Part shown: positions 5,033 through 20,000 of the stretch, piece after piece
Layout of the letters: every line of letters begins with the position of its first letter
How positions within the stretch are numbered: the first letter of the stretch is position 1
From: an uncultured virus (IMG/VR IMGVR_UViG_3300032007_000033)
Taxonomy: Duplodnaviria > Heunggongvirae > Uroviricota > Caudoviricetes
Strand: one strand, 5' to 3'
Virus record (IMG/VR): IMGVR_UViG_3300032007_000033
Coordinates: 115,410-135,409 of that record
DNA length: 20,000 nt
The notes under the pieces: model-generated
The model's database searches: none
The model's input: the letters and a program-made list of their open reading frames with translations, nothing else
Told to the model about the DNA's origin: nothing
Program-made: the position numbers and the translations under genes

Positions 5033-5443
5033 TCATCCTTGATTTTCAATGCAATGTTTCAAAGTGGTCTCCGACACACAACCAATTGAAGTGCAAAAAT
5101 AACCTCTTGTCCATAAATTATGTTTACCGCTCCAATAAAAGTTTATTAAATAATCGTTGTGATTTTTCCAAGCATAAAATGTAGAAATTTGTTTCAAATT
5201 ATGAATTATATCAGAAATTTGACAAGTCGGAGTAGCATTAATCATTAAATGAATATGGTCGGCTTTAGTTAAATCAATTTCCATAGTTTCTATTTTCCAT
5301 TTATTTTGTTTGGATTCGGCAATTTTCATATATGATTTTATATCTTCCGAGATATCTTTCAGACATTTCTTTTTATATTTTGTTGAAAAAATCATATGAT
5401 ACTTGATTTTATATTTTTCATGATTAAAATGTTCGTAATCCAT
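5033..5443 (-). CDS. tnpA: IS200-family HUH (Y1) transposase, probably inactive
   Basis: YHMIFSTKYKK, HUH motif DHIHLM, LWTRGYF. The C-terminal motif reads HCIENQ where YIENQ is expected. Confidence 0.92.
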   Translation of the reverse strand: MDYEHFNHEKYKIKYHMIFSTKYKKKCLKDISEDIKSYMKIAESKQNKWKIETMEIDLTKADHIHLMINATPTCQISDIIHNLKQISTFYAWKNHNDYLINFYWSGKHNLWTRGYFCTSIGCVSETTLKHCIENQG

Positions 5444-7537: not shown

Positions 7538-8455
7538 CTAGAAATCGAACAATTCCTTTTTAGTCTGACTGTCCGCGACCTTTACGCAAGCGCAACCTCT
7601 TTTCTTGAATTCCTCTAAAAAGGACTTCCTCTTATCGTCATAAAAGTAGACGATTTCCGCCCCTTCCATTCCATCGAATGTTCCGTCGAGAATGTAGCGA
7701 ACATGCAGAAAGTTCTTGTAGTCGAACGGATAGGATTGAATCCCCAAATCGTGGCAACCAAAACACATGTCGTCCTCGTTTCTAGTTCCTCCGCATATCG
7801 CCTCGATGTAGAATTTATCCTTGTCGATGTAGGGCTTCAACGCGTCAATAATTCCCTTTCTGTCCAACTCGGACTCCACGACCAATATTCTGTGCGGTTT
7901 CTCGATGCAGTCCTTTCCCAAGTACCTAGCGGAAATCAATGAGCGGTTTATCCATTTGGATATGTTCTTTCCGTTGCTTCCGTCGCGAGAGTCGTAAATC
8001 TTGAACGGATATGACACCGAGTAAGGGTCTACTCCTTTCGGCAAATTCGTCTTCAAACACTCGCAACCCTTGGTGTATTTCTTCATCTCCTCTTTCATGA
8101 CTTTCCATGTCGGACGACTCTTGTAGTAGTTCTTCAACTTGAAGTGGGCGGTCTTACAGTAATATTTTTGTCCGTCGTTCAACATGACTTCTCCGCAGAA
8201 ATCGTTGAGGTGGACGCCTATTCCCATTCCTTGGTAGTCAGGCAACACGACAAGCCTATGACCCATGTAAAAATCACGAATGTCTCCGTTCGGCAAGAGC
8301 AACATCGCCCTAAAACCGACCAATATATCGCCCCAATAGCATATGAACACTCGGCAAGGAGCCAAATTCGCCTCTTGGGTCAAATAATGATATTGCCTAA
8401 ATATTTTCCAAAGGCCTTCCTTCTTTGAGTTGTCCGCGACCTCGTAGACGGACAA
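7538..8455 (-). CDS. GNAT-fold acyltransferase domain protein (probably the C-terminal part of an ATPase fusion)
   Basis: Acyl-CoA-binding motif HRLVVLPDYQGMGIG; FRQYHYL; weak independent start; reachable by a -1 shift from the upstream ATPase. Confidence 0.75.
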   Translation of the reverse strand: MSVYEVADNSKKEGLWKIFRQYHYLTQEANLAPCRVFICYWGDILVGFRAMLLLPNGDIRDFYMGHRLVVLPDYQGMGIGVHLNDFCGEVMLNDGQKYYCKTAHFKLKNYYKSRPTWKVMKEEMKKYTKGCECLKTNLPKGVDPYSVSYPFKIYDSRDGSNGKNISKWINRSLISARYLGKDCIEKPHRILVVESELDRKGIIDALKPYIDKDKFYIEAICGGTRNEDDMCFGCHDLGIQSYPFDYKNFLHVRYILDGTFDGMEGAEIVYFYDDKRKSFLEEFKKRGCACVKVADSQTKKELFDF

Positions 8456-9114
8456 CTCAATTCTTTTTTTAGTTCAACTCCTCGGCAATCATAAACCTTC
8501 TCGTCGTCCAAGTCCACCACAATATCAGGTTCCATATAGTCTATATAATCCTTGTGGCAAGAGCAGAAAACGACCTTCTTCAAATTGTGCTTGACGATAT
8601 ACTTCTTCACTCCGATTACTGTGGAAATCGCCACATTTCTGTCTACGGTTGATGTGAACTCATCGAAACACATCTCCGACTGAATGTTCAAGGCCAAGTC
8701 CGCCCTAAAGCCCTCGCCCACAGAGAGCACATTTCTAGGACGGCACCAAGTAGGGACGGTGGACAATCCGACCGAAGCCAATCTGTCCATGCAATCCTCC
8801 TTGTCAGTGAAGTCGAAGTTGGAAATCACGGACTTGGAGCAATCATATTTCTTGATTTTCTTCTCGAAGAAAGGAAATTCCTTGAGAAGTTGGGATTTTC
8901 CCGCTCCGCTTCGACCGCAAATCACGCAAGTGCGATAGTCAATCTCGTTCAAAACCTTCGGCAGTCTATAAGGATAGAATTTACTCTCTCCCACGAATTC
9001 ATAGTCAAAATAAGATTGTGCCAACTGAGTGTATTCATCGCACGGAATCTTTGAAACCAAAGGCTCGTCCTTGCGTTGCAGAGAGCACAAAACTTTGCAA
9101 TCTTGATAGTTCAT
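8380..9114 (-). CDS. soluble ABC-type ATPase
   Basis: Walker A GRSGAGKS, signature LSVGEGFRA, Walker B MCFDE, H-loop CSCH; AAGGAG RBS; no permease nearby. Confidence 0.88.
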   Translation of the reverse strand: MNYQDCKVLCSLQRKDEPLVSKIPCDEYTQLAQSYFDYEFVGESKFYPYRLPKVLNEIDYRTCVICGRSGAGKSQLLKEFPFFEKKIKKYDCSKSVISNFDFTDKEDCMDRLASVGLSTVPTWCRPRNVLSVGEGFRADLALNIQSEMCFDEFTSTVDRNVAISTVIGVKKYIVKHNLKKVVFCSCHKDYIDYMEPDIVVDLDDEKVYDCRGVELKKELSCPSTRSRTTQRRKAFGKYLGNIII

Positions 9115-10592: not shown

Positions 10593-10961
10593 TCAACTAG
10601 CCTTCTTTGTCCAAGTCACATTGATTGTGATGTCGCCCTTGATTGGGTTCTCGCAGTCTTCCGTGACAATTGACTCATTGTATCTATAAGTGGGGTAGTA
10701 GTCCGTCACGCTTAAATCCTTCTCGTGAATCGCGTTGCCGATTGTCTCGAACGGTTGGGCGGTGTATGTGGCGCTAGTTCCTCCGTTGTCCGAATTGGTG
10801 AAAGTCACCGTGAATGTGGTCGGAGTGGGGGTTGTGTTGGGAACTCCGCCACACATGAGGGTTTGGGCGTCGTTGGCGAAGTTTCCTCTGAAAGTGGTGT
10901 ATGAATATCCGTGTCCGTTCATTCCTTCCTTGTTGTCGTTCAAATTGAAATTGTTGGGCAT
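10593..10961 (-). CDS. probable virion accessory protein with a Pro/Thr linker and small beta domain
   Basis: PNTTPTPTT linker, then FTVTF...DITINVTW resembling InlB B-repeat-like domains; AGGAG RBS; TTAACTATTTTA motif upstream. Confidence 0.55.
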   Translation of the reverse strand: MPNNFNLNDNKEGMNGHGYSYTTFRGNFANDAQTLMCGGVPNTTPTPTTFTVTFTNSDNGGTSATYTAQPFETIGNAIHEKDLSVTDYYPTYRYNESIVTEDCENPIKGDITINVTWTKKAS

Positions 10962-11027
10962 AATTTTGTCTCTCCTAATGAATAAATTTTGATAAAATAG
11001 TTAAAAATTCATTGCTCAATCTAGTGG

Positions 11028-11354
11028 AACGGCTTTAATGAGTTTAAATTTGCCAACGACCAAAACGAATTAAGCGAGTGGTATGACTTCTACACCTACA
11101 ACAACGATTCTTGGGTTATGACTTCCGCTCCTTATGATGGATTTATAACCGCTATATCTAGAGGAAGTAATGGAGCAAGCATTAACATTTTTGTAAATGA
11201 TATAATTATAGCCGCCAATTCAAACGCAGATTATGGAATAAATGGTCAAGGTGAAGTTGCGTTTAGAAAGGGTGATAAGTTAGAGATTACTAGTTCTTTT
11301 AGGGATAAAGGTTACATCTGTTTCTACGAAAAGCGCGACTACTCCAACCGATAA
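11028..11354 (+). CDS. silent variable C-terminal cassette 1 (family A)
   Basis: Frame opens at the site: NGFNEFKFANDQNELSEW...PYDGF...FRKGD...YEKRDYSNR; no RBS/ATG. Confidence 0.88.
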   Translation, partial: NGFNEFKFANDQNELSEWYDFYTYNNDSWVMTSAPYDGFITAISRGSNGASINIFVNDIIIAANSNADYGINGQGEVAFRKGDKLEITSSFRDKGYICFYEKRDYSNR

Positions 11355-11366
11355 TCATTCAAGTGG

Positions 11367-11714
11367 AACGGTCATTATGAGTTATTGAAAATCACCACCG
11401 ATGAACAATGGACAGGTCGCTATTGGAACGATGGAAAGAAAATTTATACAAGAATGATATCCAACACAAAATCCTTTATGTATCATTCTTTTGTCGAATT
11501 ATTTTCATATTCAGATTATAATATAGATACATTAATCTCAGTTCAAGAAACTCCTTTTTCTAATAATATAGATAGTTATTTCTTTAAATGTAACGCTTAT
11601 GGATTTGATGTATCATTTGATAGGAAAGTTAGAGCGTGGAACACTTACACAGGTGGTTCTACAGTAACTAAATCATACATATTAATTATTGAATACACCA
11701 AAACATCTTCCTAA
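11367..11714 (+). CDS. silent cassette 2 (family B)
   Basis: NGHYELLKITTDEQWTGRYWNDGKKIY...IEYTKTSS. Confidence 0.88.
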   Translation, partial: NGHYELLKITTDEQWTGRYWNDGKKIYTRMISNTKSFMYHSFVELFSYSDYNIDTLISVQETPFSNNIDSYFFKCNAYGFDVSFDRKVRAWNTYTGGSTVTKSYILIIEYTKTSS

Positions 11715-11722
11715 TTTAGCGG

Positions 11723-12049
11723 AACGGATGGAATGAGTTCGTTAATAATTGCGAGTTAAGCGAGTGGGAAGAGATTTCACTGAGCACTAACTCAAGCAAT
11801 CCAACCGTTATGACTTATGACGGATTCTTAATTGTAAGAAGTCCGAGTGGCTCAGGTGGCACTATATATGTTAATGGGTCTCCTATTGCTAATGCAACAC
11901 ATAGCGGGTACGGCGGAACGACATATGAAGGTTCAAGCGCAACTATACCTGTTAAGAAAAACGACGAAATATACAAGATTGTTGGAATGGGGGATACAAA
12001 TCCATCCTTTGTGGCCTACTACAAGAAACGCGACTACTCAAACAGATAA
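11723..12049 (+). CDS. silent cassette 3 (family A)
   Basis: NGWNEFVNNCELSEWEEISLSTNSSNPTVMTYDGF...YYKKRDYSNR. Confidence 0.88.
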   Translation, partial: NGWNEFVNNCELSEWEEISLSTNSSNPTVMTYDGFLIVRSPSGSGGTIYVNGSPIANATHSGYGGTTYEGSSATIPVKKNDEIYKIVGMGDTNPSFVAYYKKRDYSNR

Positions 12050-12062
12050 CTCACTCTAACGG

Positions 12063-12371
12063 AACGGCTTTAATGAGTTCGTGAATAACTGCGAGTTGGG
12101 AGAGTTGGAAGATATAAGCATTCCAACAAGTCCGATAACCATAATGCTTTATGACGGAGTTTTTTTAGGCACTGCTAGTTCCACAGAACCTTATGTAATA
12201 GACATTTTAGATGAAAACAATCAAATAATATTCGCTTGTATAGGTGGAGGAAGTTGGGGAGACACTTTCACTTTTCCTTTTAACAAAGGGGATAGAATGC
12301 GATTAAGGCAAGGTACTCCACTCTATAAAAAAGTTCGTTACTACAAAAAACGAGATTATTCCAACCGATAA
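12063..12371 (+). CDS. silent cassette 4 (family A)
   Basis: NGFNEFVNNCELGEL...MLYDGV...YYKKRDYSNR. Confidence 0.88.
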   Translation, partial: NGFNEFVNNCELGELEDISIPTSPITIMLYDGVFLGTASSTEPYVIDILDENNQIIFACIGGGSWGDTFTFPFNKGDRMRLRQGTPLYKKVRYYKKRDYSNR

Positions 12372-12383
12372 TCGTTATAGCGG

Positions 12384-12668
12384 AACGGCTACAACAATCA
12401 ACAATGGGTTCCTGATTACAGCAACTTATTGAATCCAGGTTCAACATCTTTTCCGTATACAGCGTCAGAAGATTGTTTCGTGATGTATTTTTGGGGTGTA
12501 AATGGTCAGTTGAAGATAGACGGAAATGCTGTTTCATGTTATACATCGCCAAGCGGCGTGTCCAATACAGTATTTTTTGGCTTTGTGCGTAAGGGGTCTG
12601 TTTTATCGACCTCAGCATCGAGCTTATCAAACGACCAGTTCCGAGTTTTTGGCTTGAGCAAAGTGTGA
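12384..12668 (+). CDS. silent cassette 5 (family A-like, PDY subtype)
   Basis: NGYNNQQWVPDYSNLLNPGSTSFPYTASEDCF...VRKGS. Confidence 0.85.
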   Translation, partial: NGYNNQQWVPDYSNLLNPGSTSFPYTASEDCFVMYFWGVNGQLKIDGNAVSCYTSPSGVSNTVFFGFVRKGSVLSTSASSLSNDQFRVFGLSKV

Positions 12669-12707
12669 TTTTGAAAAAAAGATATTTTAGCTGCCTAAAC
12701 ATAGAAT

Positions 12708-13031
12708 TTAGGCGGTAGGAACAGATTTATAACCAATGGTTCTCCAATTACCTGATAAACCTGCGGGGCCAAACATTCTAAATCCTGTCGTCTTTTTATA
12801 ATAATAGGCAAGATTATACCAAGGTCCACCCATACTATTACCTGAATCTGTCATAATGGACATAGAAACATTATAATTTATGTCGTCATACTCCAAAGGT
12901 AAAACTATATCGCTACCAACAGACGCGGTATTCCATTGTTCAAGCCTTCCATCTTCATACCAAATATACGATGGAGTTCCGTCATGGTTTATTGAAATTT
13001 GGTGTATTTTATTTCTGTCATTATATCCGTT
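12708..13031 (-). CDS. silent cassette 6 (family C, gp53-like tail-fibre tip)
   Basis: NGYNDRNKIHQISINHDGTPSYIWYEDGRLEQWNTASVGSDIVLPLEYDD...WRTIGY. Confidence 0.85.
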   Translation of the reverse strand, partial: NGYNDRNKIHQISINHDGTPSYIWYEDGRLEQWNTASVGSDIVLPLEYDDINYNVSMSIMTDSGNSMGGPWYNLAYYYKKTTGFRMFGPAGLSGNWRTIGYKSVPTA

Positions 13032-13047
13032 CCGTTAGAGTGAGCGA

Positions 13048-13362
13048 TTATTTATGCGGAACAAAAAACACTCCGTGTATTGGCATACCCGTTTGAGGAC
13101 GGTAATTTGTCATAACAACAGTATCGCCTTTATTAACCTTAAACATACAATTCAAAAATGTTTCATAATAATTATTTGTGGAACTTGCGCAAAGAACATA
13201 CACACCGTTTATCTGTAAATGCGTGTTAGCATAAGCAGCAACCATACCGCACAATTCTATCCACCCATTGTCAAGAACGGTATAATTGCTCAAATCCGAT
13301 TCAGAAATTTCCGTTCTGTTTGTGTAATCAGGGTTGTTAAATCCTATCTCATCATAGCCGTT
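13048..13362 (-). CDS. silent cassette 7 (family A-like, PDY subtype)
   Basis: NGYDEIGFNNPDYTNRTEISESDLSNYTVLDNGW...VNKGDTV...FFVPHK. Confidence 0.85.
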   Translation of the reverse strand, partial: NGYDEIGFNNPDYTNRTEISESDLSNYTVLDNGWIELCGMVAAYANTHLQINGVYVLCASSTNNYYETFLNCMFKVNKGDTVVMTNYRPQTGMPIHGVFFVPHK

Positions 13363-13375
13363 CCGCTAGAGTGAG

Positions 13376-13705
13376 TTATCTGTTAGAGTAGTCGCGCTTC
13401 TTGTAGTAACGAACTAGAGTATTTCGAATGTATCTATCAAGTGAACAATAAATTGTGTCGCCTTTTTTAATAGCGAGTTGAAGGAAATATCCGTAACGAG
13501 GTGAATCAGAAGCAAACATATAAGTCAACGCTTTCCCATTAATAACCAATTTGTATTCCCCACTGTTATCACCTTCTCCCTTTATACAGTCGAAAGTAAT
13601 GAATCCATCATAATCCATCACAGTCGGATTGTTGGAGTCTGTTGATAGAGTTATTGTTTCCCAATCGCTTAATTCACAGTTATTCACGAAGTCGTTATAG
13701 CCGTT
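13376..13705 (-). CDS. silent cassette 8 (family A)
   Basis: NGYNDFVNNCELSDW...MDYDGF...YYKKRDYSNR. Confidence 0.88.
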   Translation of the reverse strand, partial: NGYNDFVNNCELSDWETITLSTDSNNPTVMDYDGFITFDCIKGEGDNSGEYKLVINGKALTYMFASDSPRYGYFLQLAIKKGDTIYCSLDRYIRNTLVRYYKKRDYSNR

Positions 13706-13716
13706 CCGTTAGAATA

Positions 13717-14028
13717 TCACAGATTTCCTTTTACGAAAATCGAAGCTTCTACTTGCAATTTTCCGTTTCCACTATCTCCATATTGTCCATCCCAAATCTT
13801 AAAACTACTTGTTGTCACTGTTCCGATGTTAGTATGATAAGTTCCATTTCGTGCAGAATTTCCCATAGTAAGAATGACAGGTATTGAAGAATATGTTTTA
13901 GGATAATTGACGATTGCCGTTCCAATAGGAGCGGTTCCTCGAAATTCAAGAACACCGTCTATTTCTTCGCAATACAAAGTAAAACTATTGGTGCTTGTAT
14001 CACTCCAACGCTTTACATAATGACCGTT
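13717..14028 (-). CDS. silent cassette 9 (family C)
   Basis: NGHYVKRWSDTSTNSFTLYCEEIDGVLEFRG...VNYPKTYSSIPVI...IFVKGNL. Confidence 0.85.
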   Translation of the reverse strand, partial: NGHYVKRWSDTSTNSFTLYCEEIDGVLEFRGTAPIGTAIVNYPKTYSSIPVILTMGNSARNGTYHTNIGTVTTSSFKIWDGQYGDSGNGKLQVEASIFVKGNL

Positions 14029-14040
14029 CCACTTGAATGA

Positions 14041-14349
14041 TTATCGGTTGGAGTAGTCGCGTTTCTTGTAAAAGCGGACTCTTGAATACAGACTTCCTGA
14101 ATGGACTATTCGGATTCCATCATTTTTTATGAATGGAATGAAACCAAAACCTGTTCCTCCTTCTGGTCTATTGTCGCTAATTTCATTGCCATTGACAAAA
14201 ATTTTTAAGGTGGATGAACTTGATTGCGAAGTAAAACATAGCAAGAAACCATCATAACTCATAACAGTCGGATTATTTGGGTCTGTGCTTATAGATATGT
14301 TTTCCCACTCGCTCAACTTGCAATTATTAACAAAATCATTGTAGCCGTT
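14041..14349 (-). CDS. silent cassette 10 (family A)
   Basis: NGYNDFVNNCKLSEW...MSYDGF...FYKKRDYSNR. Confidence 0.88.
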   Translation of the reverse strand, partial: NGYNDFVNNCKLSEWENISISTDPNNPTVMSYDGFLLCFTSQSSSSTLKIFVNGNEISDNRPEGGTGFGFIPFIKNDGIRIVHSGSLYSRVRFYKKRDYSNR

Positions 14350-14398
14350 CCCCTAAATTAAATAACGAAATTTCGGCTATAAAAAATTCAAAAAAGTA

Positions 14399-14427
14399 TT
14401 GATTTTTAACCGCCCTAGATGTAAAAT
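14399..14427 (+). promoter_or_regulatory. probable sigma70-type promoter
   Basis: TTGATT, 17 bp, TAAAAT, upstream of the AAGGAG RBS and ATG 14462. Confidence 0.6.
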
Positions 14428-14461
14428 CGCATCCAAACAATACATATGCAAGGAGAAATAT

Positions 14462-15559
14462 ATGAAAATTTCAACAAAACCCTTTTTGGAAAATCTGAAG
14501 TCAATCAACAATGTGGTTTCTGATTTCGTCTACATCGATTGCACCGACGCGTCGAACTACGCGTTCTATGTGTCCACAGACACCCAAGCGATGAAAATTC
14601 CGCTTGAGATTTCCGATGTTTCGGATGAGGAAAAACAAGTCTATGTAATCAACAAGGTCGAATTCATCCACTTGGTTTCCTACGCCAAGGAATTTGTGGA
14701 GTTGAATGCGGACTATTCTTACGAAGCCAATGATGGTCAAGTGAAGGGAAAATTCGAAAAAAACGAGGGCTACTCCGACGAATTGGAGTCTAGGAAAGTC
14801 CTTTTTGACAACGAAAGCGAATACAAAGATTTCATGGAAGTTACTCCATCAATAATGAACGCAATCACAAGCGGTGGAATTTTCGTATCGCCTGACTCAA
14901 TCAAGCCGTCTGAAAGATTCTTGGACATTCAACACTCAAAAGTTTTCTCATATTCAAACTACAAAATTTACATGGACGGCATCGACATGGATGAGGAAAA
15001 AGAAGGCCTTTTGTCAATCGAAGTCTTGAAATCAATCCAATCGTTGGGAATCGGAGCGGTGGTCAAGAGCAACAACGACTCGTATCTCTGCACCAACGCG
15101 CAAAGAAGCATTTTCGAGTATTTCTCGACTCCCAATGATGTGGACTTTCATCCGCTTTTTTCGGAAGGATTCCAAAACAAACTAAAGGAAACCAAATCTT
15201 TCAACAAAATCGAGTTCAACATCGAGGAATTGAAGGCCAAATTAGACTACCTCTCGTTCTACGCCAACAAAAACCCCAACAAAATGTGCTTCTTGAACGC
15301 CAAAAAAGACGGAAAATTTTTCATTTCCACGGATGAAAACACCTTCGTGGAGGTTTCCGCCAAAATCGAAAAAAAGGAGCAATTCGAGGACATGTCGGTT
15401 CCAGTGGATTGCTCTTCAATGCAGTTGATTTTGTCAAAGGTCGGCAAGGAAGCGGAAGTTTGGAACATGTACATTTCAAACGACCCTTCCAAGAAACTCA
15501 TCGTCACCACATTTGGAGACACGGAAGAAACCGTAATCTTGGCCAAACTCAATGTTTAA
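14462..15559 (+). CDS. 365-aa protein, possibly a divergent DNA polymerase beta sliding clamp
   Basis: Start at ATG 14462 (AAGGAG RBS). Length, acidity and segments (MKISTKPFLENLKSI, IEFNIEELKAKL, VPVDCSSMQLIL, C-terminal TVILAKL) echo the DnaN layout. The CDS is solid; the function is tentative. Confidence 0.5.
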   Translation: MKISTKPFLENLKSINNVVSDFVYIDCTDASNYAFYVSTDTQAMKIPLEISDVSDEEKQVYVINKVEFIHLVSYAKEFVELNADYSYEANDGQVKGKFEKNEGYSDELESRKVLFDNESEYKDFMEVTPSIMNAITSGGIFVSPDSIKPSERFLDIQHSKVFSYSNYKIYMDGIDMDEEKEGLLSIEVLKSIQSLGIGAVVKSNNDSYLCTNAQRSIFEYFSTPNDVDFHPLFSEGFQNKLKETKSFNKIEFNIEELKAKLDYLSFYANKNPNKMCFLNAKKDGKFFISTDENTFVEVSAKIEKKEQFEDMSVPVDCSSMQLILSKVGKEAEVWNMYISNDPSKKLIVTTFGDTEETVILAKLNV

Positions 15560-15566
15560 ATTGACG

Positions 15567-15598
15567 AAAGGCGGTCTTTTTATGAGACCGTCTTTTTT
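15567..15598 (+). terminator. intrinsic terminator
   Basis: AAAGGCGGTCT-loop-AGACCGTCTTTTTT. Confidence 0.8.
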
Positions 15599-15673
15599 AA
15601 ATTTAACTATATAAAATGGAAAGGCCGAATTCACGATTCGGCCAATTCATCAAACTATAATAGAGGTTATAGA

Positions 15674-16873
15674 ATGACTAAGAAAATAGTTAAGAAATGC
15701 GAAGAAATTAAAATCTCAAAATTAAAAATAAACAACAAGTTAAAGAATGTGCAATTTTTATTGAAGAAAGAAGTGTTTGAACGGATGTGCGTAATATCCG
15801 ACTCTTGCTCCGACTTGTCGATGGCGTATGTTCCTTGGGTAGGAAAGATAGCCACGATAAAGAAGTCTGACGGAAAGAAAGAGGATGTATGTTTCCTTGA
15901 GCCTTGCGCGGAAAACAACTACGCGGACATCTCGTTCTTCGACGGAACGAAATACAAAAACTTCAAGGCTTGCCGAGTTAGAACATTGGAATCCGTTCCG
16001 ATGGACGGAAGCCTTCTCACATACTCGAAAGGAACAATCTCAGACTCCAACTTTTTTGTTTTCTATAGCGTCATTCCTAGCGAAATGGGAAAAATTTTGA
16101 TGATGACCGCCAAGACTTATGAATTCTTGACATCCAACAACTTCAACAAGCATATTAGAATGTTTAACATCAATGACGCGGACAAGGTGAAGAAGGCGTT
16201 TAATTTGTCCGACCGACAAATGATTTCAATCGACTTCTCCAAGGAATTTACAATGCGAGGGGACGAGAGAAAGAACGCAAGCGACAAAAGAAACGCTTGC
16301 TTGAAAACCCTCGCCTTGATGAAAAAAATCGACGAACGAAAGCCTTGCTCCAACTTGCGCACTCACTACGGACTCCAATACTCTGCGTTCAACTTGATGA
16401 GCGGAGAGATTCGACAGTTCCGCGACGCGGTCGCTAGAAACAATTTCTTTGATTCGTTGAACATGAAACTCGCGGACAACCACAACATTCTCTTGAATTG
16501 CAAAAACATGAGAAAAATCGTCGAGGGCGATAAAGTCGAGTCATTTAGGGCGAACATATTTGAGAGCGGTTGGGTAGTGTGTGAGTACATCGCGGATATC
16601 GTTGAGTTAGCCAAGTTCGTGAAATCATTGGTCATGAAATTGCTCGAAAAATCCAAGAGAACCGCCAAAAAGTTGCGCGAGATTTTCTCGAAAGCCAAGA
16701 AAAATTTCTTCAACATAATCAACAAAATTATAGACACTACAACCAAGATGAAATTCAATCTGCGGAAAAAATTCTCGTTCGCTAGAACTATGAAACTCTT
16801 GGAGACTGTTGTCGACGAAAAATCGCATCCTCTAAATTTCAAACTCAAACTCAAATTCAACAATTTGTGTTGA
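15674..16873 (+). CDS. basic hypothetical protein (399 aa)
   Basis: Long ORF with GAGG RBS and a Lys/Arg-rich C-terminus; no family recognised. Confidence 0.75.
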   Translation: MTKKIVKKCEEIKISKLKINNKLKNVQFLLKKEVFERMCVISDSCSDLSMAYVPWVGKIATIKKSDGKKEDVCFLEPCAENNYADISFFDGTKYKNFKACRVRTLESVPMDGSLLTYSKGTISDSNFFVFYSVIPSEMGKILMMTAKTYEFLTSNNFNKHIRMFNINDADKVKKAFNLSDRQMISIDFSKEFTMRGDERKNASDKRNACLKTLALMKKIDERKPCSNLRTHYGLQYSAFNLMSGEIRQFRDAVARNNFFDSLNMKLADNHNILLNCKNMRKIVEGDKVESFRANIFESGWVVCEYIADIVELAKFVKSLVMKLLEKSKRTAKKLREIFSKAKKNFFNIINKIIDTTTKMKFNLRKKFSFARTMKLLETVVDEKSHPLNFKLKLKFNNLC

Positions 16874-17145
16874 GAAAACGATTTAATTTTCATCTAATTT
16901 CCAATCTTCTCTCTTCCATTCTTTAAAGAATCATTTTAAAGTTCGTCTCAATCATATGAAAAATTCTTTCAATTTCATTGAATAAATTTTTTTCTTTTGA
17001 ATTTTAAAGAAAAAATAATAAATTTTATTTTAAAAATTCTTTTTCTTTAAAAATTTTTTAACAATATAAGATACCTTGCTAATTAAAAATCCATTTTTCT
17101 TTTCATTTTTTCAAGAAAATTTAAAGAAAAAAATGAAATTTTAAA

Positions 17146-17766
17146 TTAGCGGAGTATCTTTTTAGGCTTCTTCATTTTAGAAAAATAAACAATGAATCTT
17201 TTCATCGTATTCCACCTTACATTATAAAACTTGGCCAAGGAATTCACGCTCTCGCCTTCCTTAAATCTTCTCATTATCTCTTTTTGGTAGGGTCGGAGTT
17301 TCACTCCGTAGACGATTTCTCCCTTCTGTCGTCCTATCTTCTTTCCGTTCTTCCTAGCGACTGCCAATCCTAATTTGGTTCTCTCGGATATCAAATCGCG
17401 TTCTATTTGGGCGGAAAGTCCGAACGCAAACAACATTACTGTGGCGGTAATATTGCTTTTATCCAATGGGTTTAAGTCAAAATTGTTCTTGATTGCTATG
17501 ATTCTGACTCCTCTTTCCGCTATTTTGCTTACAATTTCGAACACCATTTTAAAACTTCTTCCCAATCGCGAAATTTCAGTCATGACCAATACATCGCCTT
17601 CTTGCAATTGTTGAATCAGTTGGCCTAAAAGCCTTTTGTGATAGTCAACAGTTCCGCTTTTCTTCTCGTAAACCCATTTGTCGATTTTAAATTTTTCGGA
17701 AATTGCGTCTTGTTGATTTTCAAGATTTTGTTCTTGAGTTGACACTCTTAAATAACCGTAGTTCAT
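17146..17766 (-). CDS. serine recombinase (resolvase/invertase family); putative shufflon invertase
   Basis: YGYLRVST (catalytic Ser), EKKSG, GDVLVMTEISRLGRS, AQIERDLISERTKLGLAVARKNGKKIGR, C-terminal HTH (SVNSLAKFYNVRWNTM); AGGAG RBS. Confidence 0.95.
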   Translation of the reverse strand: MNYGYLRVSTQEQNLENQQDAISEKFKIDKWVYEKKSGTVDYHKRLLGQLIQQLQEGDVLVMTEISRLGRSFKMVFEIVSKIAERGVRIIAIKNNFDLNPLDKSNITATVMLFAFGLSAQIERDLISERTKLGLAVARKNGKKIGRQKGEIVYGVKLRPYQKEIMRRFKEGESVNSLAKFYNVRWNTMKRFIVYFSKMKKPKKILR

Positions 17767-17795
17767 GTAAAACTCCTTTTTAATTGATTGACAAT

Positions 17796-17836
17796 CTTAT
17801 ACAATATATTTTTATTTTTGTCAAGTAAAATTATCA
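17796..17836 (-). promoter_or_regulatory. invertase promoter
   Basis: TTGACA (17824-17819), 17 bp, TATAAG; 21-bp block identical to 4666-4686. Confidence 0.7.
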
Positions 17837-17861
17837 TTTTTTTTTATATCCAATCTAGTCG

Positions 17862-18230
17862 AACGGTTGGAATGACTTCGTGAATAATTGCGAGTTGGGT
17901 GATATAGAAGATTACACAAACATAATTCCGCATGAAACAAGTGTGCCACAAAATTATTACACGGCGGAATACGATGGGTTTGTTGAGATTTCATTTGGGT
18001 CTAGTTCAACAACATCAAGGACAAAAACCTACTTGATAATTAACAACACCATCGTAGGATATGGAGGAACAGTCGGATATTTGAATAATTGCGGAGAAAC
18101 AGGAGGAAATATATGTGCTCCTGTCAAGAAAAATGATGAAATTAAAGTAACAACAATTACAAGTCCAACTTATTTTGAATTCAAAATTTATTGTAGATTT
18201 TATAAACTTAGAGATTATTCTAACAGATAA
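17862..18230 (+). CDS. silent cassette 11 (family A)
   Basis: NGWNDFVNNCELGDIEDY...EYDGF...PVKKND...FYKLRDYSNR. Confidence 0.88.
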   Translation, partial: NGWNDFVNNCELGDIEDYTNIIPHETSVPQNYYTAEYDGFVEISFGSSSTTSRTKTYLIINNTIVGYGGTVGYLNNCGETGGNICAPVKKNDEIKVTTITSPTYFEFKIYCRFYKLRDYSNR

Positions 18231-18243
18231 CTCACTCTAGCGG

Positions 18244-18597
18244 AACGGCCAAGTTGAGTTGCTTGGTTATTCGACAGAAGAGAGATGGACGGGCAAATAT
18301 TGGACTGACGGAAAAAAGATATATTCAAAAACATTTAGTGTAACTGCTAGCGGTGATTATACATTAAATAATGTTGACACTGTTATAAACTTTGAAGCCA
18401 CCGCTTTGAATAACAATTCATATTGGAGACCCTGTGACGGATTCTTAACTACTCTTGGGAGCAACCAAATAAACGGAACTACCATTGATGTTAATTATGC
18501 AGCAAACAAATTCCATATCGGCTACTTGGGAGAAGGTATGGGATATACATTCACAAAGGCCAATGTAACAGTTTATTACACTAAGACCACAGACTAG
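18244..18597 (+). CDS. silent cassette 12 (family B)
   Basis: NGQVELLGYSTEERWTGKYWTDGKKIY...YYTKTTD. Confidence 0.88.
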   Translation, partial: NGQVELLGYSTEERWTGKYWTDGKKIYSKTFSVTASGDYTLNNVDTVINFEATALNNNSYWRPCDGFLTTLGSNQINGTTIDVNYAANKFHIGYLGEGMGYTFTKANVTVYYTKTTD

Positions 18598-18600
18598 CGG

Positions 18601-18739
18601 TTGACAAAACCGCATTACTAGCCTTATAATGCCATTATTCGGGTGTGTTGACCCATTTGCACAGATGTGTCAAACCAACAAATAATCCTTGCGGAGACAT
18701 CACGGCACTGCGAATGCCGTCTTCGCAAGGATTTTTTTT
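18601..18739 (+). ncRNA. putative small structured RNA with its own promoter and terminator
   Basis: TTGACA (18601), 18 bp, TATAAT (18625-18630); hairpin TTGAC-CATTTG/CAGATG-GTCAA; long hairpin AATCCTTGCG...ACGGCA/TGCCGT...CGCAAGGATT followed by a U run. Confidence 0.55.
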
Positions 18740-19082
18740 AGCGGTTGGAGTAGTCGCGCTTTTTGTAAAAATTGCCAAAAGATTTAAAACTTCCAGCTTC
18801 AAGGCGTGTCAAAGAGCAATAAACTGAATCCCCTTTTGAAATTGCCAATGATTGTGAAACAGTAAAATTATAAAGTGATGAAACATTGTAATTATCAAAA
18901 AAATCAACTCCATTTATGTAAATGTGAAAATCTGAACCATTGCCTCCAGTTCCTGTTGTATTGAATCCTGCTCTTATGAATCCGTCATAATCCATTATTG
19001 TCGGATTATTGGGGTCAGTTGATAAAGTTATGTTTTCCCAACCGTCCAACTCACAATTATTAACGAAGTCGTTATGGCCGTT
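18738..19082 (-). CDS. silent cassette 13 (family A)
   Basis: NGHNDFVNNCELDGW...MDYDGF...FYKKRDYSNR. Confidence 0.88.
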   Translation of the reverse strand, partial: NGHNDFVNNCELDGWENITLSTDPNNPTIMDYDGFIRAGFNTTGTGGNGSDFHIYINGVDFFDNYNVSSLYNFTVSQSLAISKGDSVYCSLTRLEAGSFKSFGNFYKKRDYSNR

Positions 19083-19090
19083 CCGCTATA

Positions 19091-19831
19091 TTATAACTCT
19101 CGTTCTTTGTAGAACCGAGCTGAAAACATAGAAGTAGCAGAATCTGTTGGACCAATCATTTGAATTGAAAAAATATCACCCTTACTTACATAAGTGGAAT
19201 AAGAAAATTTATTAGCACTTCCACTTGTCGAAAAAATTTCAATTCCATTAATTGTTATACTTCTGTTATAAGATGTTTCAATTCCAAAATATAAAAAACC
19301 GTCGTAAGGACATACATAAGGAAAATAATTTGAAAATCGAGTATCTGCCCACGTATAGATTACTTCCACTTCGCTCAAATGCTCGCTCTCGCTTTGGCCG
19401 TTCGCATAGATTGAGTAAGTCGTTGATGAGAGGACTAATGGGTTACCAATAACCACAAACGCAGGATTTCCGCTTCCGTCGTCGCTCGTGTAATACATCT
19501 CCAACACAGTGTTGGGGTCGAGAACTTTGTACACAGTCGTTCCGCTTTCATCCATCGCGTGAATGGGAAGCGGTTGCAAAGTTCCGTTCACATTCGCGTC
19601 GACTTGAATTCCGTTCAAAGTCATGTAGTCAGTAGAGTTGGAGGCGTCGTGTCCTTGCGAGAACACTACCTTGAACGCCAAGTTGGTGTCAGGCGCGCTC
19701 TCGTCAAATCCCAACGGAAAAGTGACGCTCTTGGCCGAGCCTTTCGCTTGGCTCGCGATTAAAACATTTCCGAATCCGCATAAAGAGTAGTCCTTGTTCG
19801 TGGCTTCCTTCTTGAATGAATCTATGTACAT
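19091..19831 (-). CDS. expressed shufflon gene: 143-aa constant region plus cassette 14; probable tail-fibre/receptor-binding protein
   Basis: AGGAGG RBS and ATG. A crossover site is read in frame as SIYA-NG-QSE at 19389-19414. The C-terminal part (PYDGF...ING...VSKGD...RFYKER) is homologous to the silent family A cassettes. Confidence 0.88.
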   Translation of the reverse strand: MYIDSFKKEATNKDYSLCGFGNVLIASQAKGSAKSVTFPLGFDESAPDTNLAFKVVFSQGHDASNSTDYMTLNGIQVDANVNGTLQPLPIHAMDESGTTVYKVLDPNTVLEMYYTSDDGSGNPAFVVIGNPLVLSSTTYSIYANGQSESEHLSEVEVIYTWADTRFSNYFPYVCPYDGFLYFGIETSYNRSITINGIEIFSTSGSANKFSYSTYVSKGDIFSIQMIGPTDSATSMFSARFYKEREL

Positions 19832-19914
19832 ATTGTTCCTCCTAAAATTCTACAAATAAAATAGTTAATGTTTTGGGATTTTAGATGAAAAAATTCGGTT
19901 AGTCAATCTATGCG

Positions 19915-20000
19915 AACGGTTGGAATGACTTCGTGAATAATTGCGAGTTGGGTGATATAGAAGATTACACAAACATAATTCCGCATGAAACAAGTGTGCC
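19915..20000 (+). CDS. cassette 15 (partial; identical to the start of cassette 11)
   Basis: 19913-20000 is identical to 17860-17947. Confidence 0.8.

What the first reader, a model, noticed from the sequence alone, without database searches (positions are those of the whole stretch)
11016..20000. Large serine-invertase shufflon with at least 15 sites swapping the C-terminal domain of a phage protein
Seen: 15 related sites, each followed by an in-frame, start-less cassette beginning N-G-x-x-(mostly D/E). Only one is fused to a constant N-terminus with RBS and ATG (19831). Sites occur in both orientations and a serine recombinase lies between the two arrays. Known: Gin (Mu) and Cin (P1) switch two tail-fibre ends, Min (p15B) shuffles a handful, and the R64 shufflon uses the tyrosine recombinase Rci. 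Inference: a much larger multi-cassette system giving at least 14 alternative receptor-binding tips, probably a host-range switch that continues beyond the window.
Basis: partly seen in the sequence, partly recalled or inferred. Interest (0 to 1): 0.95.

Follow-up and report, generated by a model that had tools for sequence, protein, structure and literature searches.

The report
Twenty-cassette phage tail-fibre shufflon
A large phage from cattle gut carries a DNA-flipping enzyme and about twenty interchangeable endings for one small fibre-like protein, probably to change which bacteria it can attach to; it is a much larger version of the switch known from phages Mu and P1.

Summary
The window is the last 20 kb of a 135-kb myovirus contig. 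It holds exactly 15 copies of a 26-bp site (12-AA-12, imperfect dyad), found nowhere else on the contig. Each site is followed in frame by a start-less open cassette of 94-122 aa that begins N-G. Only one site is fused to a 143-aa constant N-terminus with a ribosome-binding site and ATG. A Gin-like serine invertase lies inside the array.

A second public contig is identical over 7,866 nt and runs 2.3 kb further. It adds four clear sites and one degenerate site, giving 20 distinct cassettes over about 11.2 kb. That contig, the window's own end and contigs from another study carry recombinant junctions placed exactly at the site cores.

All 59 homologues share the N-terminus up to Y-x-I-Y-A-(N/D)-G and then diverge. 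In related phages this domain ends J-type central tail fibres or sits in tail modules, next to a 64%-identical invertase and one or two inverted cassettes. Models give a trimer with C1q/TNF-like tips.

Verdict: a real serine-invertase multiple-inversion system of the Min/Gin kind, far larger than any I found in print. The host-range role is inferred.

The parts
19403..19831 (-). Constant N-terminal part (143 aa) of the expressed 246-aa protein. ATG at 19831, with AGGAGG upstream. It ends ...S-I-Y-A at the L arm of site 19389.
   Evidence: ORF 19091..19831; translation. It occurs once in the contig. 59 homologues share it up to Y-x-I-Y-A-[ND]-G. The model of it alone has pLDDT 85.3.
19091..19414 (-). 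Site 19389-19414 (TCAATCTATGCG-AA-CGGCCAAAGCGA) and the currently expressed cassette, 103 aa (NGQSESEHLSEV...FYKEREL).
   Evidence: The cassette model has a C1q/TNF-like jelly-roll fold, Z 8-9.3. P0004 is a relative that carries this cassette type as its C-terminus.
19903..20000 (+). Site 19903-19928. Its L arm is identical to that of the constant gene and it lies in the opposite orientation upstream of that gene. It is followed by a cassette start that copies 17862-17947 and runs off the contig.
   Evidence: In L029 the same L arm is joined to a different 113-aa cassette.
17146..17766 (-). Serine DNA invertase, 206 aa, with the catalytic serine in YGYLRVSTQEQ.
   Evidence: Pfam PF00239 1.3e-32; phrog_125 3.3e-45. 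The best solved relative is Gin, 4m6f, E 2.7e-18. It is 64% and 63% identical to the invertases of L020 and L035.
11016..11354 (+). Site 11016 and silent cassette of 108 aa (family A).
   Evidence: Its L arm is found joined to other R arms in L029 and in run X3.
11355..11714 (+). Site 11355 and silent cassette of 115 aa (family B, NGHYELLKITTDEQWTGRYW...).
11711..12049 (+). Site 11711 and silent cassette of 108 aa (family A).
12051..12371 (+). Site 12051 and silent cassette of 102 aa (family A).
   Evidence: Its R arm is joined to the L arm of site 11016 in L029.
12372..12668 (+). Site 12372 and silent cassette of 94 aa (no relative among the other cassettes).
12708..13043 (-). Site 13018 and silent cassette of 107 aa (no relative among the other cassettes).
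   Evidence: Its R arm is joined to the L arm of site 17850 in run X3.
13048..13374 (-). Site 13349 and silent cassette of 104 aa.
13376..13717 (-). Site 13692 and silent cassette of 109 aa (family A).
13717..14040 (-). Site 14015 and silent cassette of 103 aa (no relative among the other cassettes).
14041..14361 (-). Site 14336 and silent cassette of 102 aa (family A).
   Evidence: Its R arm is joined to the L arm of site 11016 in run X3.
17850..18230 (+). Site 17850 and silent cassette of 122 aa (family A).
18232..18597 (+). Site 18232 and silent cassette of 117 aa (family B).
18738..19094 (-). Site 19069 and silent cassette of 114 aa (family A).
15674..16873 (+). 399-aa ORF of unknown family inside the invertible region, convergent with the invertase. 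It may be an accessory part of the system.
   Evidence: No Pfam or PHROG match. A 38%-identical homologue (E 8e-72) lies in the same convergent position beside the invertase in L035. It has 25 homologues, none with a Pfam domain.
14399..15559 (+). 386-aa ORF of unknown family inside the invertible region. It is probably a passenger.
   Evidence: No Pfam or PHROG match. It shows no similarity to the L035 ORF. A terminator-like hairpin lies at 15566-15596.
18598..18737 (.). Spacer with hairpin and T-run between two convergent cassettes, terminator-like. A similar spacer lies at 12669-12707.
   Evidence: Sequence; terminator-like site at 18709-18727.

Best explanation
This is a multiple-inversion system (a shufflon in the wide sense) driven by a small Gin-like serine invertase in a large myovirus from bovine gut.

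How the switch works. One gene (19831..19091, - strand) supplies a promoter, a ribosome-binding site and a 143-aa constant N-terminal domain. That domain ends S-I-Y-A at the left arm of a 26-bp crossover site. The site consensus is TCAATCTAGCGG-AA-CGGCTATAATGA, two imperfectly symmetric 12-bp arms around an invariant AA. The core and right arm encode N-G, and each of the other sites opens a start-less cassette of about 100 aa in the same frame.

The invertase pairs two sites in inverted orientation, cuts at the AA/TT core, exchanges strands and so inverts the DNA between them. This puts a different cassette behind the constant part.

Layout. Sites stand in both orientations in convergent sub-arrays, so successive inversions make every cassette reachable. 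The promoter and N-terminus module is itself bracketed by inverted sites (19389- and 19903+). It can therefore flip to face either the left or the right cassette library.

Size. Together with the 2.3 kb beyond the window there are 19 clear sites, one degenerate site and 20 distinct cassettes over about 11.2 kb. That allows 20 alternative C-termini, one expressed per genome.

The protein. It is most likely a trimeric distal tail-fibre or receptor-binding protein whose C1q/TNF-like tip is exchanged, giving a phage population with mixed adsorption specificities.

Shown: the sites, frames and invertase family; recombinant junctions at the cores; homology to tail-fibre ends.
Inferred: that this invertase catalyses the exchange, that the tip binds receptors, and that host range changes.
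For: Sites and frames.
- 15 of 15 sites are confirmed and are unique to this 9-kb stretch of a 135-kb contig.
- All cassettes are open. 14 of 15 have a stop 1-4 codons upstream. One is fused to the constant part. P(open for 94 codons) is about 0.0013 per frame.
- Site arms match their own reverse complement at a mean of 6.8 of 12 positions, against 3.15 for random 26-mers. 2.3% of random 26-mers reach 7. The consensus matches at 9 of 12. Positions 12-17 (G-AA-CGG) are invariant in 19 of 19 sites.

Invertase.
- Pfam Resolvase 1.3e-32 and phrog_125 3.3e-45. The best solved relative is Gin, with the catalytic Ser aligned.

Recombinant junctions.
- L029 equals the window with 0 mismatches over 12063-19928 (7,866 nt). 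Yet it begins with the flank and L arm of site 11016 joined at the core to the R arm and cassette of site 12051.
- At site 19903, L029 continues into a cassette different from the one in the window.
- In run X3, from another study, one contig joins the L arm of 11016 to the R arm of 14336(-) on opposite strands (side 90). Another 865-nt contig joins the R arm of 13018(-) to the L arm of 17850(+) (side 255; 8 of 340 and 1 of 316 other letters).

Relatives.
- All 59 homologues keep Y-x-I-Y-A-[ND]-G and then diverge.
- Sets with the same N-terminus and different C-termini exist: P0004/P0027, P0005/6/9/11 and P0016/18/21.
- 11 of 20 cassettes have relatives that form the C-terminus of such full-length proteins.
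- In L015 the domain ends a 2,454-aa central tail fibre J (phrog_31 2.4e-67, PF24801). It is followed by two inverted start-less cassettes and an invertase (phrog_125 3.2e-44).
- In L020 a 256-aa homologue follows the tape-measure, Dit-like and Tal-like genes. It carries the same site, TCAATCTATGCG-AA-CGG, with an inverted copy and a 64%-identical invertase.
- L035, a 214-kb contig, has at least 6 start-less N-G cassettes around its constant gene plus a 63%-identical invertase.

Structure.
- The cassette is a C1q/TNF-like jelly roll (Z 8-9.3, rmsd 2.5 A over about 90 residues).
- For the constant domain the only match that stands out is the phage Pa193 baseplate/tail-fibre chain, Z 5.0, with the next at 2.7.
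- Three-copy model: score 0.89, best of 3 controls 0.00. The mark was reached by 20 of 30 proteins solved as pairs of one chain and by 1 of 23 solved as single chains. The runs agree in at least 66% of contacts, and the partner's pLDDT is at least 72. My own alignment and three copies were used, so the calibration holds only roughly.
Against: - No raw reads could be laid. All four runs are kept as contigs, which drop rare variants. In the two runs of the likely source sample (X1, X2) no site-to-site joint was listed. Contigs there only break at or near the sites. So coexistence of isomers in one population, and the rate of switching, are not shown.
- The junction L(11016)-R(12051) joins two sites of the same orientation. 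It needs either a deletion or two inversions, and short-read contigs cannot phase junctions.
- The third X3 joint (13357->19078) has a side of only 22 and is weak. I lowered min_likeness to 90, a setting at which the tool warns of foreign joints.
- In the window's own genome the gene is not next to recognised tail genes. The only tail hit in the 115 kb upstream is a tail sheath about 27 kb away. The expressed protein itself has no Pfam or PHROG match.
- Fold matches for the tip are only just above the tool's stated background of Z 7-8. Z 5 for the N-terminal domain is weak.
- No HTH domain of the invertase reached E 0.01 in Pfam.
- No receptor, host or enhancer is known.
Confidence: 0.8

Rival explanations
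1. The shufflon is real, but the protein is not a receptor-binding tail fibre. It could be another variable virion-surface protein (a head or neck fibre, or a decoration) or a non-structural protein whose variable end meets some other diverse host target, for example a defence or surface factor. The switch would then serve something other than adsorption specificity.
For: The expressed protein and all cassettes lack Pfam and PHROG matches. The locus lies among replication, methylase and transposon genes at a contig end, not in a tail module. C1q/TNF-like jelly rolls occur in many unrelated proteins, and the Z values are near background.
Against: The same constant domain, with the same junction, forms the end of a J-type central tail fibre in L015 and in the Treponema-labelled L027. 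In L020 it sits directly after the tape-measure, Dit and Tal genes. 15 of 60 homologues carry a phage tail collar domain (PF07484) as their variable end. The trimer model passes its controls.
Confidence: 0.12
2. The cassettes are exchanged by general or phage-encoded homologous recombination between the short conserved stretches (gene conversion of the pilS/pilE type). The invertase would be unrelated or would serve another purpose.
For: Some neighbouring cassette ends share 60-120 nt at 72-92% identity beyond the 26-bp site. The phage encodes a UvsX-like recombinase. One X3 joint (13690->13017) and several X6 joints lie outside the site cores.
Against: The clean junctions switch exactly within the core or shared arm, with 0 mismatches on the far side for 7.9 kb. 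The sites have the 12-2-12 dyad architecture with an invariant asymmetric core. Cassettes with no similarity to any other still carry the site. Invertase, site and constant domain are inherited together in distant phages. The exchange is reciprocal, by inversion, in X3.
Confidence: 0.04
3. The array is a frozen relic, or the apparent rearrangements are assembly artefacts at repeats. On this view there is no ongoing switching.
For: De Bruijn assemblies break and can mis-join at repeats. The window ends in a 97-nt repeat. No alternative joint was listed in the likely source runs.
Against: All 20 cassettes and the invertase are intact. The sites share only 14-17 identical bases where the alternative junctions occur, which is short for a mis-join. 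That remark about assembler word length is my own inference. Three independent assemblies (the window, L029 and Logan contigs of other studies) agree on the sequence and differ only at the sites.
Confidence: 0.04

Closest known systems
Min multiple-inversion system of phage-plasmid p15B (serine invertase Min, mix sites)
   Same: It uses a small serine invertase and several crossover sites in both orientations. Start-less 3' segments of a tail-fibre gene are shuffled behind one constant 5' part. PMC6109161 (passages read) describes it as multiple inversions by a serine recombinase that give variable tail fibres.
   Different: Min has six crossover sites. That number is recalled and was not seen in any call. 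Here there are 19 clear sites plus one degenerate site and 20 cassettes. The fibre protein and the site sequence are unrelated to Min's. The cassettes are about 100 aa and carry no chaperone genes. The promoter and N-terminus module is itself invertible between two libraries. The host is not an enterobacterium, so dependence on Fis is doubtful.
Gin (Mu), Cin (P1), Pin (e14) and the gin tail-fibre shufflon of Enterobacter phage FRphi
   Same: The invertase's best solved relative is Gin. The sites are 26 bp with a 2-bp core. The switch acts on the C-terminal part of a tail fibre. In FRphi, three C-terminal isoforms were quantified by long reads and only one infects the tested host (PMC13418256, passages read).
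   Different: Those systems have two or three alternatives, against 20 here. They are lambdoid, Mu or P1 type phages of enterobacteria. Their variable segments are longer and carry assembly genes (recalled).
Rin shufflon of Bifidobacterium and Eggerthella prophages
   Same: It has a constant N-terminal gene for the receptor-binding protein, several small variable C-terminal genes, short crossover repeats and an adjacent invertase (PMC6109161; PMC8778435; passages read).
   Different: Rin is a tyrosine recombinase with 11-bp asymmetric sites and has few cassettes. The recombinase here is a serine enzyme.
BV01-like Phocaeicola phage tail-fibre shufflon
   Same: It is an active multi-cassette shufflon at the distal end of a tail-fibre gene of a gut phage, and its configurations were counted in reads (PMC13596623 preprint, passages read).
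   Different: It has three cassettes, six protein variants, 10-bp directional motifs and a 1.7-kb region. The passages I read do not state the recombinase class.
R64 / IncI shufflon (Rci, PilV)
   Same: Many sites in both orientations shuffle the C-terminal segments of an adhesin.
   Different: Rci is a tyrosine recombinase. The target is a conjugative pilus tip, not a phage protein, and there are 7 sfx sites (recalled).

Membership tests
Serine DNA invertase systems (Gin/Hin/Cin/Pin/Min) | Small serine recombinase with an N-terminal catalytic domain and a nucleophilic serine | tested here: met
   PF00239 1.3e-32 over residues 3-143; phrog_125 DNA invertase 3.3e-45. Gin 4m6f E 2.7e-18, with YGYLRVSTQEQ aligned to GYVRVSTNDQ.
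Serine DNA invertase systems (Gin/Hin/Cin/Pin/Min) | C-terminal helix-turn-helix DNA-binding domain | tested here: inconclusive
   No Pfam HTH family reached E 0.01. The phrog_125 match runs to residue 192. The tail, GRQKG...SVNSLAKFYNVRWNTMKRFI, is conserved in L020 and L035 and looks like an arm plus HTH by eye only.
Serine DNA invertase systems (Gin/Hin/Cin/Pin/Min) | 26-bp crossover sites: two imperfectly symmetric 12-bp half-sites around a 2-bp core at which exchange occurs | tested here: met
   19 of 19 sites have an invariant G-AA-CGG centre. Arms are symmetric at a mean of 6.8 of 12 positions against 3.15 at random, and the consensus at 9 of 12. Junctions in L029 switch within the core or shared arm. 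The site sequence does not resemble hix or gix (recalled, not tested).
Serine DNA invertase systems (Gin/Hin/Cin/Pin/Min) | Fis-bound recombinational enhancer, usually inside the invertase gene | not testable with these tools
   The host is unknown and no Fis-site model was available. AT-rich repeats at 16900-17140 beside the invertase gene were noted only.
Serine DNA invertase systems (Gin/Hin/Cin/Pin/Min) | Inversion actually occurs between inverted sites | tested here: met
   Two 'opposite strands' joints lie exactly at the sites in run X3 (11026|14352 and 13032|17847). These are differences between closely related genomes, not rates within one clone.
Multiple-inversion system / shufflon (functional class) | More than two sites in both orientations, with one constant 5' part and several start-less 3' alternatives | tested here: met
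   8 + sites and 7 - sites in the window, and 10 + and 9 - with L029. There is one constant part.
R64-type shufflon proper (Rci) | Tyrosine recombinase of the Rci type | tested here: not met
   The only recombinase in the locus is a serine enzyme. So 'shufflon' applies here only in the wide, functional sense.
Phage tail fibre / receptor-binding protein | Homology to, or position in, a tail module | tested here: met
   Met in relatives. The domain is the C-terminal end of a phrog_31 central tail fibre J (L015). In L020 the homologue follows the tape-measure, Sipho_tail and Sipho_Gp37 genes. It is not met in the window's own neighbourhood.
Phage tail fibre / receptor-binding protein | Homotrimer with a distal binding head | tested here: inconclusive
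   Three-copy model: score 0.89, best control 0.00; the mark was reached by 20 of 30 solved pairs and 1 of 23 single chains; at least 66% of contacts shared; pLDDT at least 72. The tip has a C1q/TNF-like fold at Z 8-9.3, near background. These are predictions only.
Phage tail fibre / receptor-binding protein | Binds a host receptor and determines host range | not testable with these tools
   There is no host and no isolate.

The most novel reading that the evidence does not exclude
This may be the largest protein-diversifying site-specific recombination system yet seen in a virus. It would be a 20-way lottery in which the expression module itself (promoter plus N-terminal domain, about 500 bp between inverted sites) flips between two flanking cassette libraries. 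It would run on a Gin-like invertase in a host without Fis. A conserved 399-aa protein of no known family, inherited together with the invertase in large-phage relatives, may help or regulate it. The junction Y-S-I-Y-A|N-G would then be a universal splice point that lets rumen phages of different morphotypes trade about 100-aa trimeric tips.
Probability: 0.3. Interest if true: 0.85.

Novelty: new variant of a known kind. Interest (0 to 1): 0.77.

Why it matters
Phage-encoded inversion switches of tail fibres are textbook material, but the described cases offer two to a handful of alternatives. A locus with 20 intact, highly diverged tips (30-51% identity within the largest family, and several with no relative among the others) behind one fixed junction shows that site-specific recombination can give a phage a repertoire on the scale usually credited to diversity-generating retroelements.

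It also defines a so far unnamed constant domain and junction shared by at least 59 proteins from gut metagenomes. It links small two-cassette switches in siphovirus-like phages to large arrays in big myoviruses. It explains why assemblies of these phages break here.

The system offers a natural, modular set of small trimeric binding heads for studying how receptor specificity is encoded. It also raises a mechanistic question: how does a Gin-like invertase control directionality among about 20 sites, presumably without Fis?

Tried and rejected
- my first pattern, GVRAACGG, was badly chosen. It gave 5 matches against 3 expected and was dropped.
- a search of viral contigs with the single 246-aa protein found no relative. 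The profile search did.
- no earlier notes exist for this genome.
- Foldseek on the whole model gave only weak matches (TM at most 0.33 on the query for the rows with E <= 0.001) among tail fibres, C1q domains and carbohydrate-binding modules. I used them as a lead only.
- the constant domain has no solved match above Z 5.
- the ESM Atlas gave no usable hit for the 399-aa ORF.
- promoter-like sites are not above chance (27 found, 25.7 expected). One 10-of-12 match lies upstream of the constant gene (19906..19878, - strand) and is only noted.
- in X1 and X2 no site-to-site joint was listed. The listed joints at 16980-17190 lie in low-complexity AT-rich DNA with foreign depth. The joint 18770->19359 (side 20), the X3 joint 13690->13017 and the X6 joints at cassette ends (12715->18739, 12716->13382, 11079|19047) are not at the cores. 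I read them as different cassette content or order in those strains, not as evidence.
- host clues are thin. One relative is on a contig of a MAG labelled Treponema sp. and one on a MAG labelled Methanobrevibacter sp. Either may be a binning accident, so I name no host.
- searches for a described equivalent returned 0 and 1 (irrelevant) papers.
- two look-ups of older literature by recalled ids found nothing held, so the number of Min sites is from recall.
- the cyanophage 30-kb inversion preprint is a different phenomenon.
- the long-read gut phageome paper does not treat tail-fibre inversions in the passages read.
- A diversity-generating retroelement was considered and dropped. No reverse transcriptase appeared among the ORFs scanned. 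That scan was not exhaustive.

Full report
WHERE THE WINDOW LIES

The window is the last 20 kb (115,410-135,409) of a 135,409-bp linear IMG/VR virus record with an estimated completeness of 64%. I called 149 ORFs of at least 70 aa outside the window. Of these, 124 are at least 100 aa, and 121 of those were scanned against PHROGs; three that span locus borders were left out. The scan shows a large tailed phage. It has a tail sheath (phrog_23), UvsX-like recombinase, ligase, anaerobic ribonucleotide reductase, RtcB, primase, a Dda-like helicase, many HNH and homing endonucleases and several DNA methyltransferases. Runs that hold the stretch are bovine gut metagenomes.

THE OBSERVATION

A listing of every GAACGG in the window (31 places) picks out 15 that share a longer context. 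A weight matrix built from these 15 scores above 12 bits at those 15 places and nowhere else in 135 kb. A pattern written afterwards from the sites matches 17 times, against 0.27 expected. That test is partly circular, but the gap is very large.

Each site reads 12-AA-12. The codon AAC that starts in the core, followed by GGN, opens a frame that stays open for 94-122 codons in 14 cases. The 15th runs off the contig after 28 codons. In 14 of 15 cases a stop lies 1-4 codons upstream. Only the site at 19389(-) is preceded by an open frame, which reaches the ATG at 19831 behind AGGAGG. A random frame of this composition stays open for 94 codons with probability about 0.0013.

The cassettes are old and diverse. 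Seven form a family at 30-51% identity, with NGxN(D/E)FVNNCEL at the start and YYKKRDYSNR at the end. Two form a second family. Five, including the expressed one, have no relative among the others. The constant part occurs once in the contig.

THE RECOMBINASE AND THE SITES

ORF 17766..17146(-) is a 206-aa serine recombinase (PF00239 1.3e-32; phrog_125 'DNA invertase' 3.3e-45). Its best solved relative is Gin, and the catalytic serine is aligned.

The 19 clear sites (15 in the window and 4 beyond it) have an invariant G-AA-CGG centre. Their arms match their own reverse complement at a mean of 6.8 of 12 positions, against 3.15 for random 26-mers; 2.3% of random 26-mers reach 7. The consensus is TCAATCTAGCGG-AA-CGGCTATAATGA and is symmetric at 9 of 12 positions. 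This is the architecture of hix, gix and cix sites as I recall it, with an unrelated sequence.

THE ARRAY CONTINUES BEYOND THE WINDOW

A profile search of metagenome contigs returned L029 (10,268 nt), which encodes the constant part at 100% identity. Its reverse complement equals window 12063-19928 without a single mismatch over 7,866 nt and then runs 2,380 nt further.

The extension holds sites at 20253(+), 20582(+), 21470(-) and 22174(-) in extended window coordinates. It also holds one site-like sequence at about 21846(-), TCTTTCTAGGTG-AA-CGGCTACATAGC, which scores below my threshold but also opens a start-less 118-aa N-G cassette. The array ends near 22199, and another gene starts near 22275.

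The count is therefore 19 clear sites plus one degenerate site, and 20 distinct cassettes, over about 11.2 kb. The constant gene with its upstream region lies between two inverted sites with identical left arms (19389- and 19903+). This roughly 500-bp module can therefore flip to face either library. That last point is inferred from the geometry.

EVIDENCE THAT THE SITES RECOMBINE

(a) L029 starts with the 10-nt flank and left arm of site 11016 and passes at the core into the right arm and cassette of site 12051. All 8 differences from the window lie on the left-arm side.

(b) At site 19903 the window continues with a copy of cassette 17862 (98% repeat), while L029 continues with a different 113-aa cassette. 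The two share only the 14 nt AACGGTTGGAATGA at the switch point.

(c) In run X3, from another study, one contig joins 11026 to 14352 on opposite strands. This is the left arm of site 11016 joined to the right arm of site 14336(-), with side 90 and 9 ambiguous letters. An 865-nt contig joins 13032 to 17847 on opposite strands. This is the right arm of site 13018(-) joined to the left arm of site 17850(+), with side 255. Its two pieces differ from the window at 8 of 340 and 1 of 316 letters. Both are exactly what an inversion between inverted sites produces.

(d) A third X3 joint (13357->19078) is at sites, but its side is only 22, so it is weak.

Results against: in X1 and X2, the likely source sample, no site-to-site joint is listed. 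Among the 16 pieces shown for these runs (494 more were not shown), the ends cluster at the sites: 11044, 11350/11363, 12062/12069, 12383, 13034, 13358/13386, 14045, 14343, 17837/17866, 18220/18248, 19374/19396/19397 and 19919/19928. Others fall at the conserved cassette 3' end (18738/18765), and one falls elsewhere (11845). Breaks at repeats are expected in any case, so this is only suggestive.

All four runs are kept as contigs. Neither the frequency of isomers nor their coexistence in one population is shown. The junction in (a) joins two sites of the same orientation, so it needs a deletion or two inversions. Short-read contigs cannot tell which.

WHAT THE PROTEIN IS

The 246-aa protein and the cassettes have no Pfam or PHROG match. 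A protein search gave 60 hits: the protein itself plus 59 others. Most cover only the first 50-65% of the query. 15 of the 60 carry a phage tail collar domain (PF07484) further on, 2 carry PF21882 and 1 carries PF21939.

All 59 have Y-x-I-Y-A-[ND]-G at the end of the shared part. I read 16 of them in full. P0004 and P0027 have the same N-terminus and different ends after SIYANG. So do P0005/6/9/11, and so do P0016/18/21. P0002 carries the window's own constant part (99%) with yet another tip. 11 of the 20 cassettes have relatives (E <= 1e-5, at least 60 aa) that form the C-terminus of such proteins.

Twelve related loci in viral contigs, two in genomes and twenty in metagenomes were fetched.
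- In L015 the domain ends a 2,454-aa protein that matches central tail fibre J (phrog_31 2.4e-67; PF24801; collagen repeat). Two inverted start-less cassettes and a serine invertase follow it.
- In L020 a 256-aa homologue follows the tape-measure, Sipho_tail and Sipho_Gp37 genes. It carries the same site, has an inverted copy 630 nt on, and is followed by an invertase 64% identical to the window's and then a tail collar fibre gene.
- L027, a contig of a MAG labelled Treponema sp., repeats the L015 plan.
- L035, from a 214-kb contig, has at least 6 start-less N-G cassettes on both sides of its constant gene and a 63%-identical invertase.

So the small versions are Gin-like two- or three-way switches in tail modules. 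The large arrays belong to big phages.

STRUCTURE PREDICTIONS

For the alignments I used 53 of the 59 homologues. P0003, P0031, P0046, P0048, P0055 and P0056 were left out as truncated or near-duplicate.

The full model has a mean pLDDT of 77.5. Residues 152-245, the cassette, align to C1q/TNF-like jelly rolls. Examples are Cbln1 (Z 9.2, rmsd 2.5 A over 92 residues) and the phage KP1 baseplate (Z 8.9). The top row is a GOLD domain at Z 9.3. The tool's background is Z 7-8.

The constant part alone has a pLDDT of 85.3. It has one match that stands out, a chain of the Pseudomonas phage Pa193 baseplate/tail-fibre complex (Z 5.0, rmsd 3.3 A over 90 residues), with the next at 2.7.

A three-copy model scores 0.89, with the best of 3 controls at 0.00. 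The mark was reached by 20 of 30 proteins solved as pairs of one chain and by 1 of 23 solved as single chains. The runs share at least 66% of contacts, and the partner's pLDDT is at least 72. My own alignment and three copies were used, so the calibration holds only roughly. Both domains contribute to the interface.

MECHANISM PROPOSED

The invertase pairs inverted sites, cuts at AA/TT, rotates and religates. The left arm encodes S-I-Y-A of the constant part. The core and right arm encode N-G of whichever cassette arrives, so every product is in frame. The asymmetric core fixes polarity. Convergent sub-arrays are separated by hairpin and T-run spacers at 12669-12707 and 18598-18737. Inversions that use the left array also turn over the invertase gene and two other ORFs, as the X3 junction 13032|17847 shows.

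The sites, frames, enzyme family and junctions are shown. Catalysis by this enzyme, receptor binding and a host-range effect are inferred.

COMPARISON WITH WHAT IS KNOWN

By mechanism and logic this is the Min/Gin/Cin kind. Papers I read in passages:
- PMC6109161 describes Min, Cin and Gin as serine systems and Rin as a tyrosine system.
- PMC13418256 describes the FRphi gin shufflon, with three isoforms quantified by long reads.
- PMC13596623 describes a BV01-like shufflon with three cassettes and six variants.
- PMC8778435 describes Rin in Eggerthella.
- PMC9881135 is a systematic survey of programmed inversions. It states that it scanned bacteria only, not viruses.

Seven full-text searches turned up no phage system with more than a handful of cassettes and nothing on this protein family. 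That is the limit of my claim that it is not in print. Subscription journals and supplements were not searched.

Failing the Rci test means the word 'shufflon' applies only in the functional sense.

VERDICT

The feature is real. It is a new, much enlarged variant of a known kind, with a new constant-domain family and a possible accessory gene.

Noticed in passing
window 15674-16873 (+); L035 6430-7677: A 399-aa ORF of no known family lies inside the invertible region, convergent with the invertase. A 38%-identical homologue (E 8e-72) holds the same position beside the invertase in a different large-phage contig. It has 25 homologues, none with a Pfam domain. Two of them sit on contigs of the same length (33,089 and 3,674 nt) as contigs that carry homologues of the fibre protein, which may mean the same contigs.
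   Followed up: partly
window 16900-17145: An AT-rich stretch with repeated TTTAAAGAA(A)n motifs lies between the convergent 399-aa ORF and the invertase gene (repeat family D18). It attracts very high foreign depth in the laid runs. It is a candidate terminator region or protein-binding (enhancer-like) DNA. This was not tested.
   Followed up: no
window 19903-20000: The contig ends in a 97-nt copy (98%) of 17851-17947, behind a different left arm. L029 has another cassette there. The contig end therefore looks like a walk into a minority isomer, which would also explain why the assembly stops here.
   Followed up: yes
window 5033-5443 (-) and 5524-6819 (+): An IS200/IS605-type pair: a Y1 transposase (PF01797 2.2e-24) and a TnpB-like protein (OrfB_IS605 1.6e-11; Cas12f1-like TNB 5.1e-10) in a low-GC island (GC about 0.26-0.30). 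A second transposase of this kind lies at contig position 65.5-66.9 kb.
   Followed up: partly
window 7538-8455 (-) and 8380-9114 (-): Two ORFs that overlap by 76 nt match successive parts of one PHROG (phrog_11143: profile 8-191 and 213-326 of 357). The second carries a GNAT fold and the first a P-loop. This is either a split gene or a frameshifted one.
   Followed up: no
window 1-1432 and contig C1 in general: The phage carries many DNA methyltransferases (N6_N4_Mtase and D12 Dam-like in the window, and at least six more upstream). It also carries at least ten HNH or homing endonuclease genes, some of which interrupt or flank ribonucleotide reductase genes.
   Followed up: no
L029, extended window coordinates 20969-21184 (+): A 72-codon open frame with a hydrophobic C-terminal stretch lies in the spacer between the convergent right-hand sub-arrays. 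It may be a small membrane protein or nothing at all.
   Followed up: no
window 10593-10961 (-): A 122-aa ORF of no known family starts 55 nt from the first site of the left array. Its upstream region shares the word AAAATAGTTAA with the region upstream of the constant gene.
   Followed up: no
P0005: One homologue (341 aa) has a second junction-like motif (NYSVYADG) inside its variable part, as if two cassette-bearing units were in tandem. PF21882 is recorded for it.
   Followed up: no
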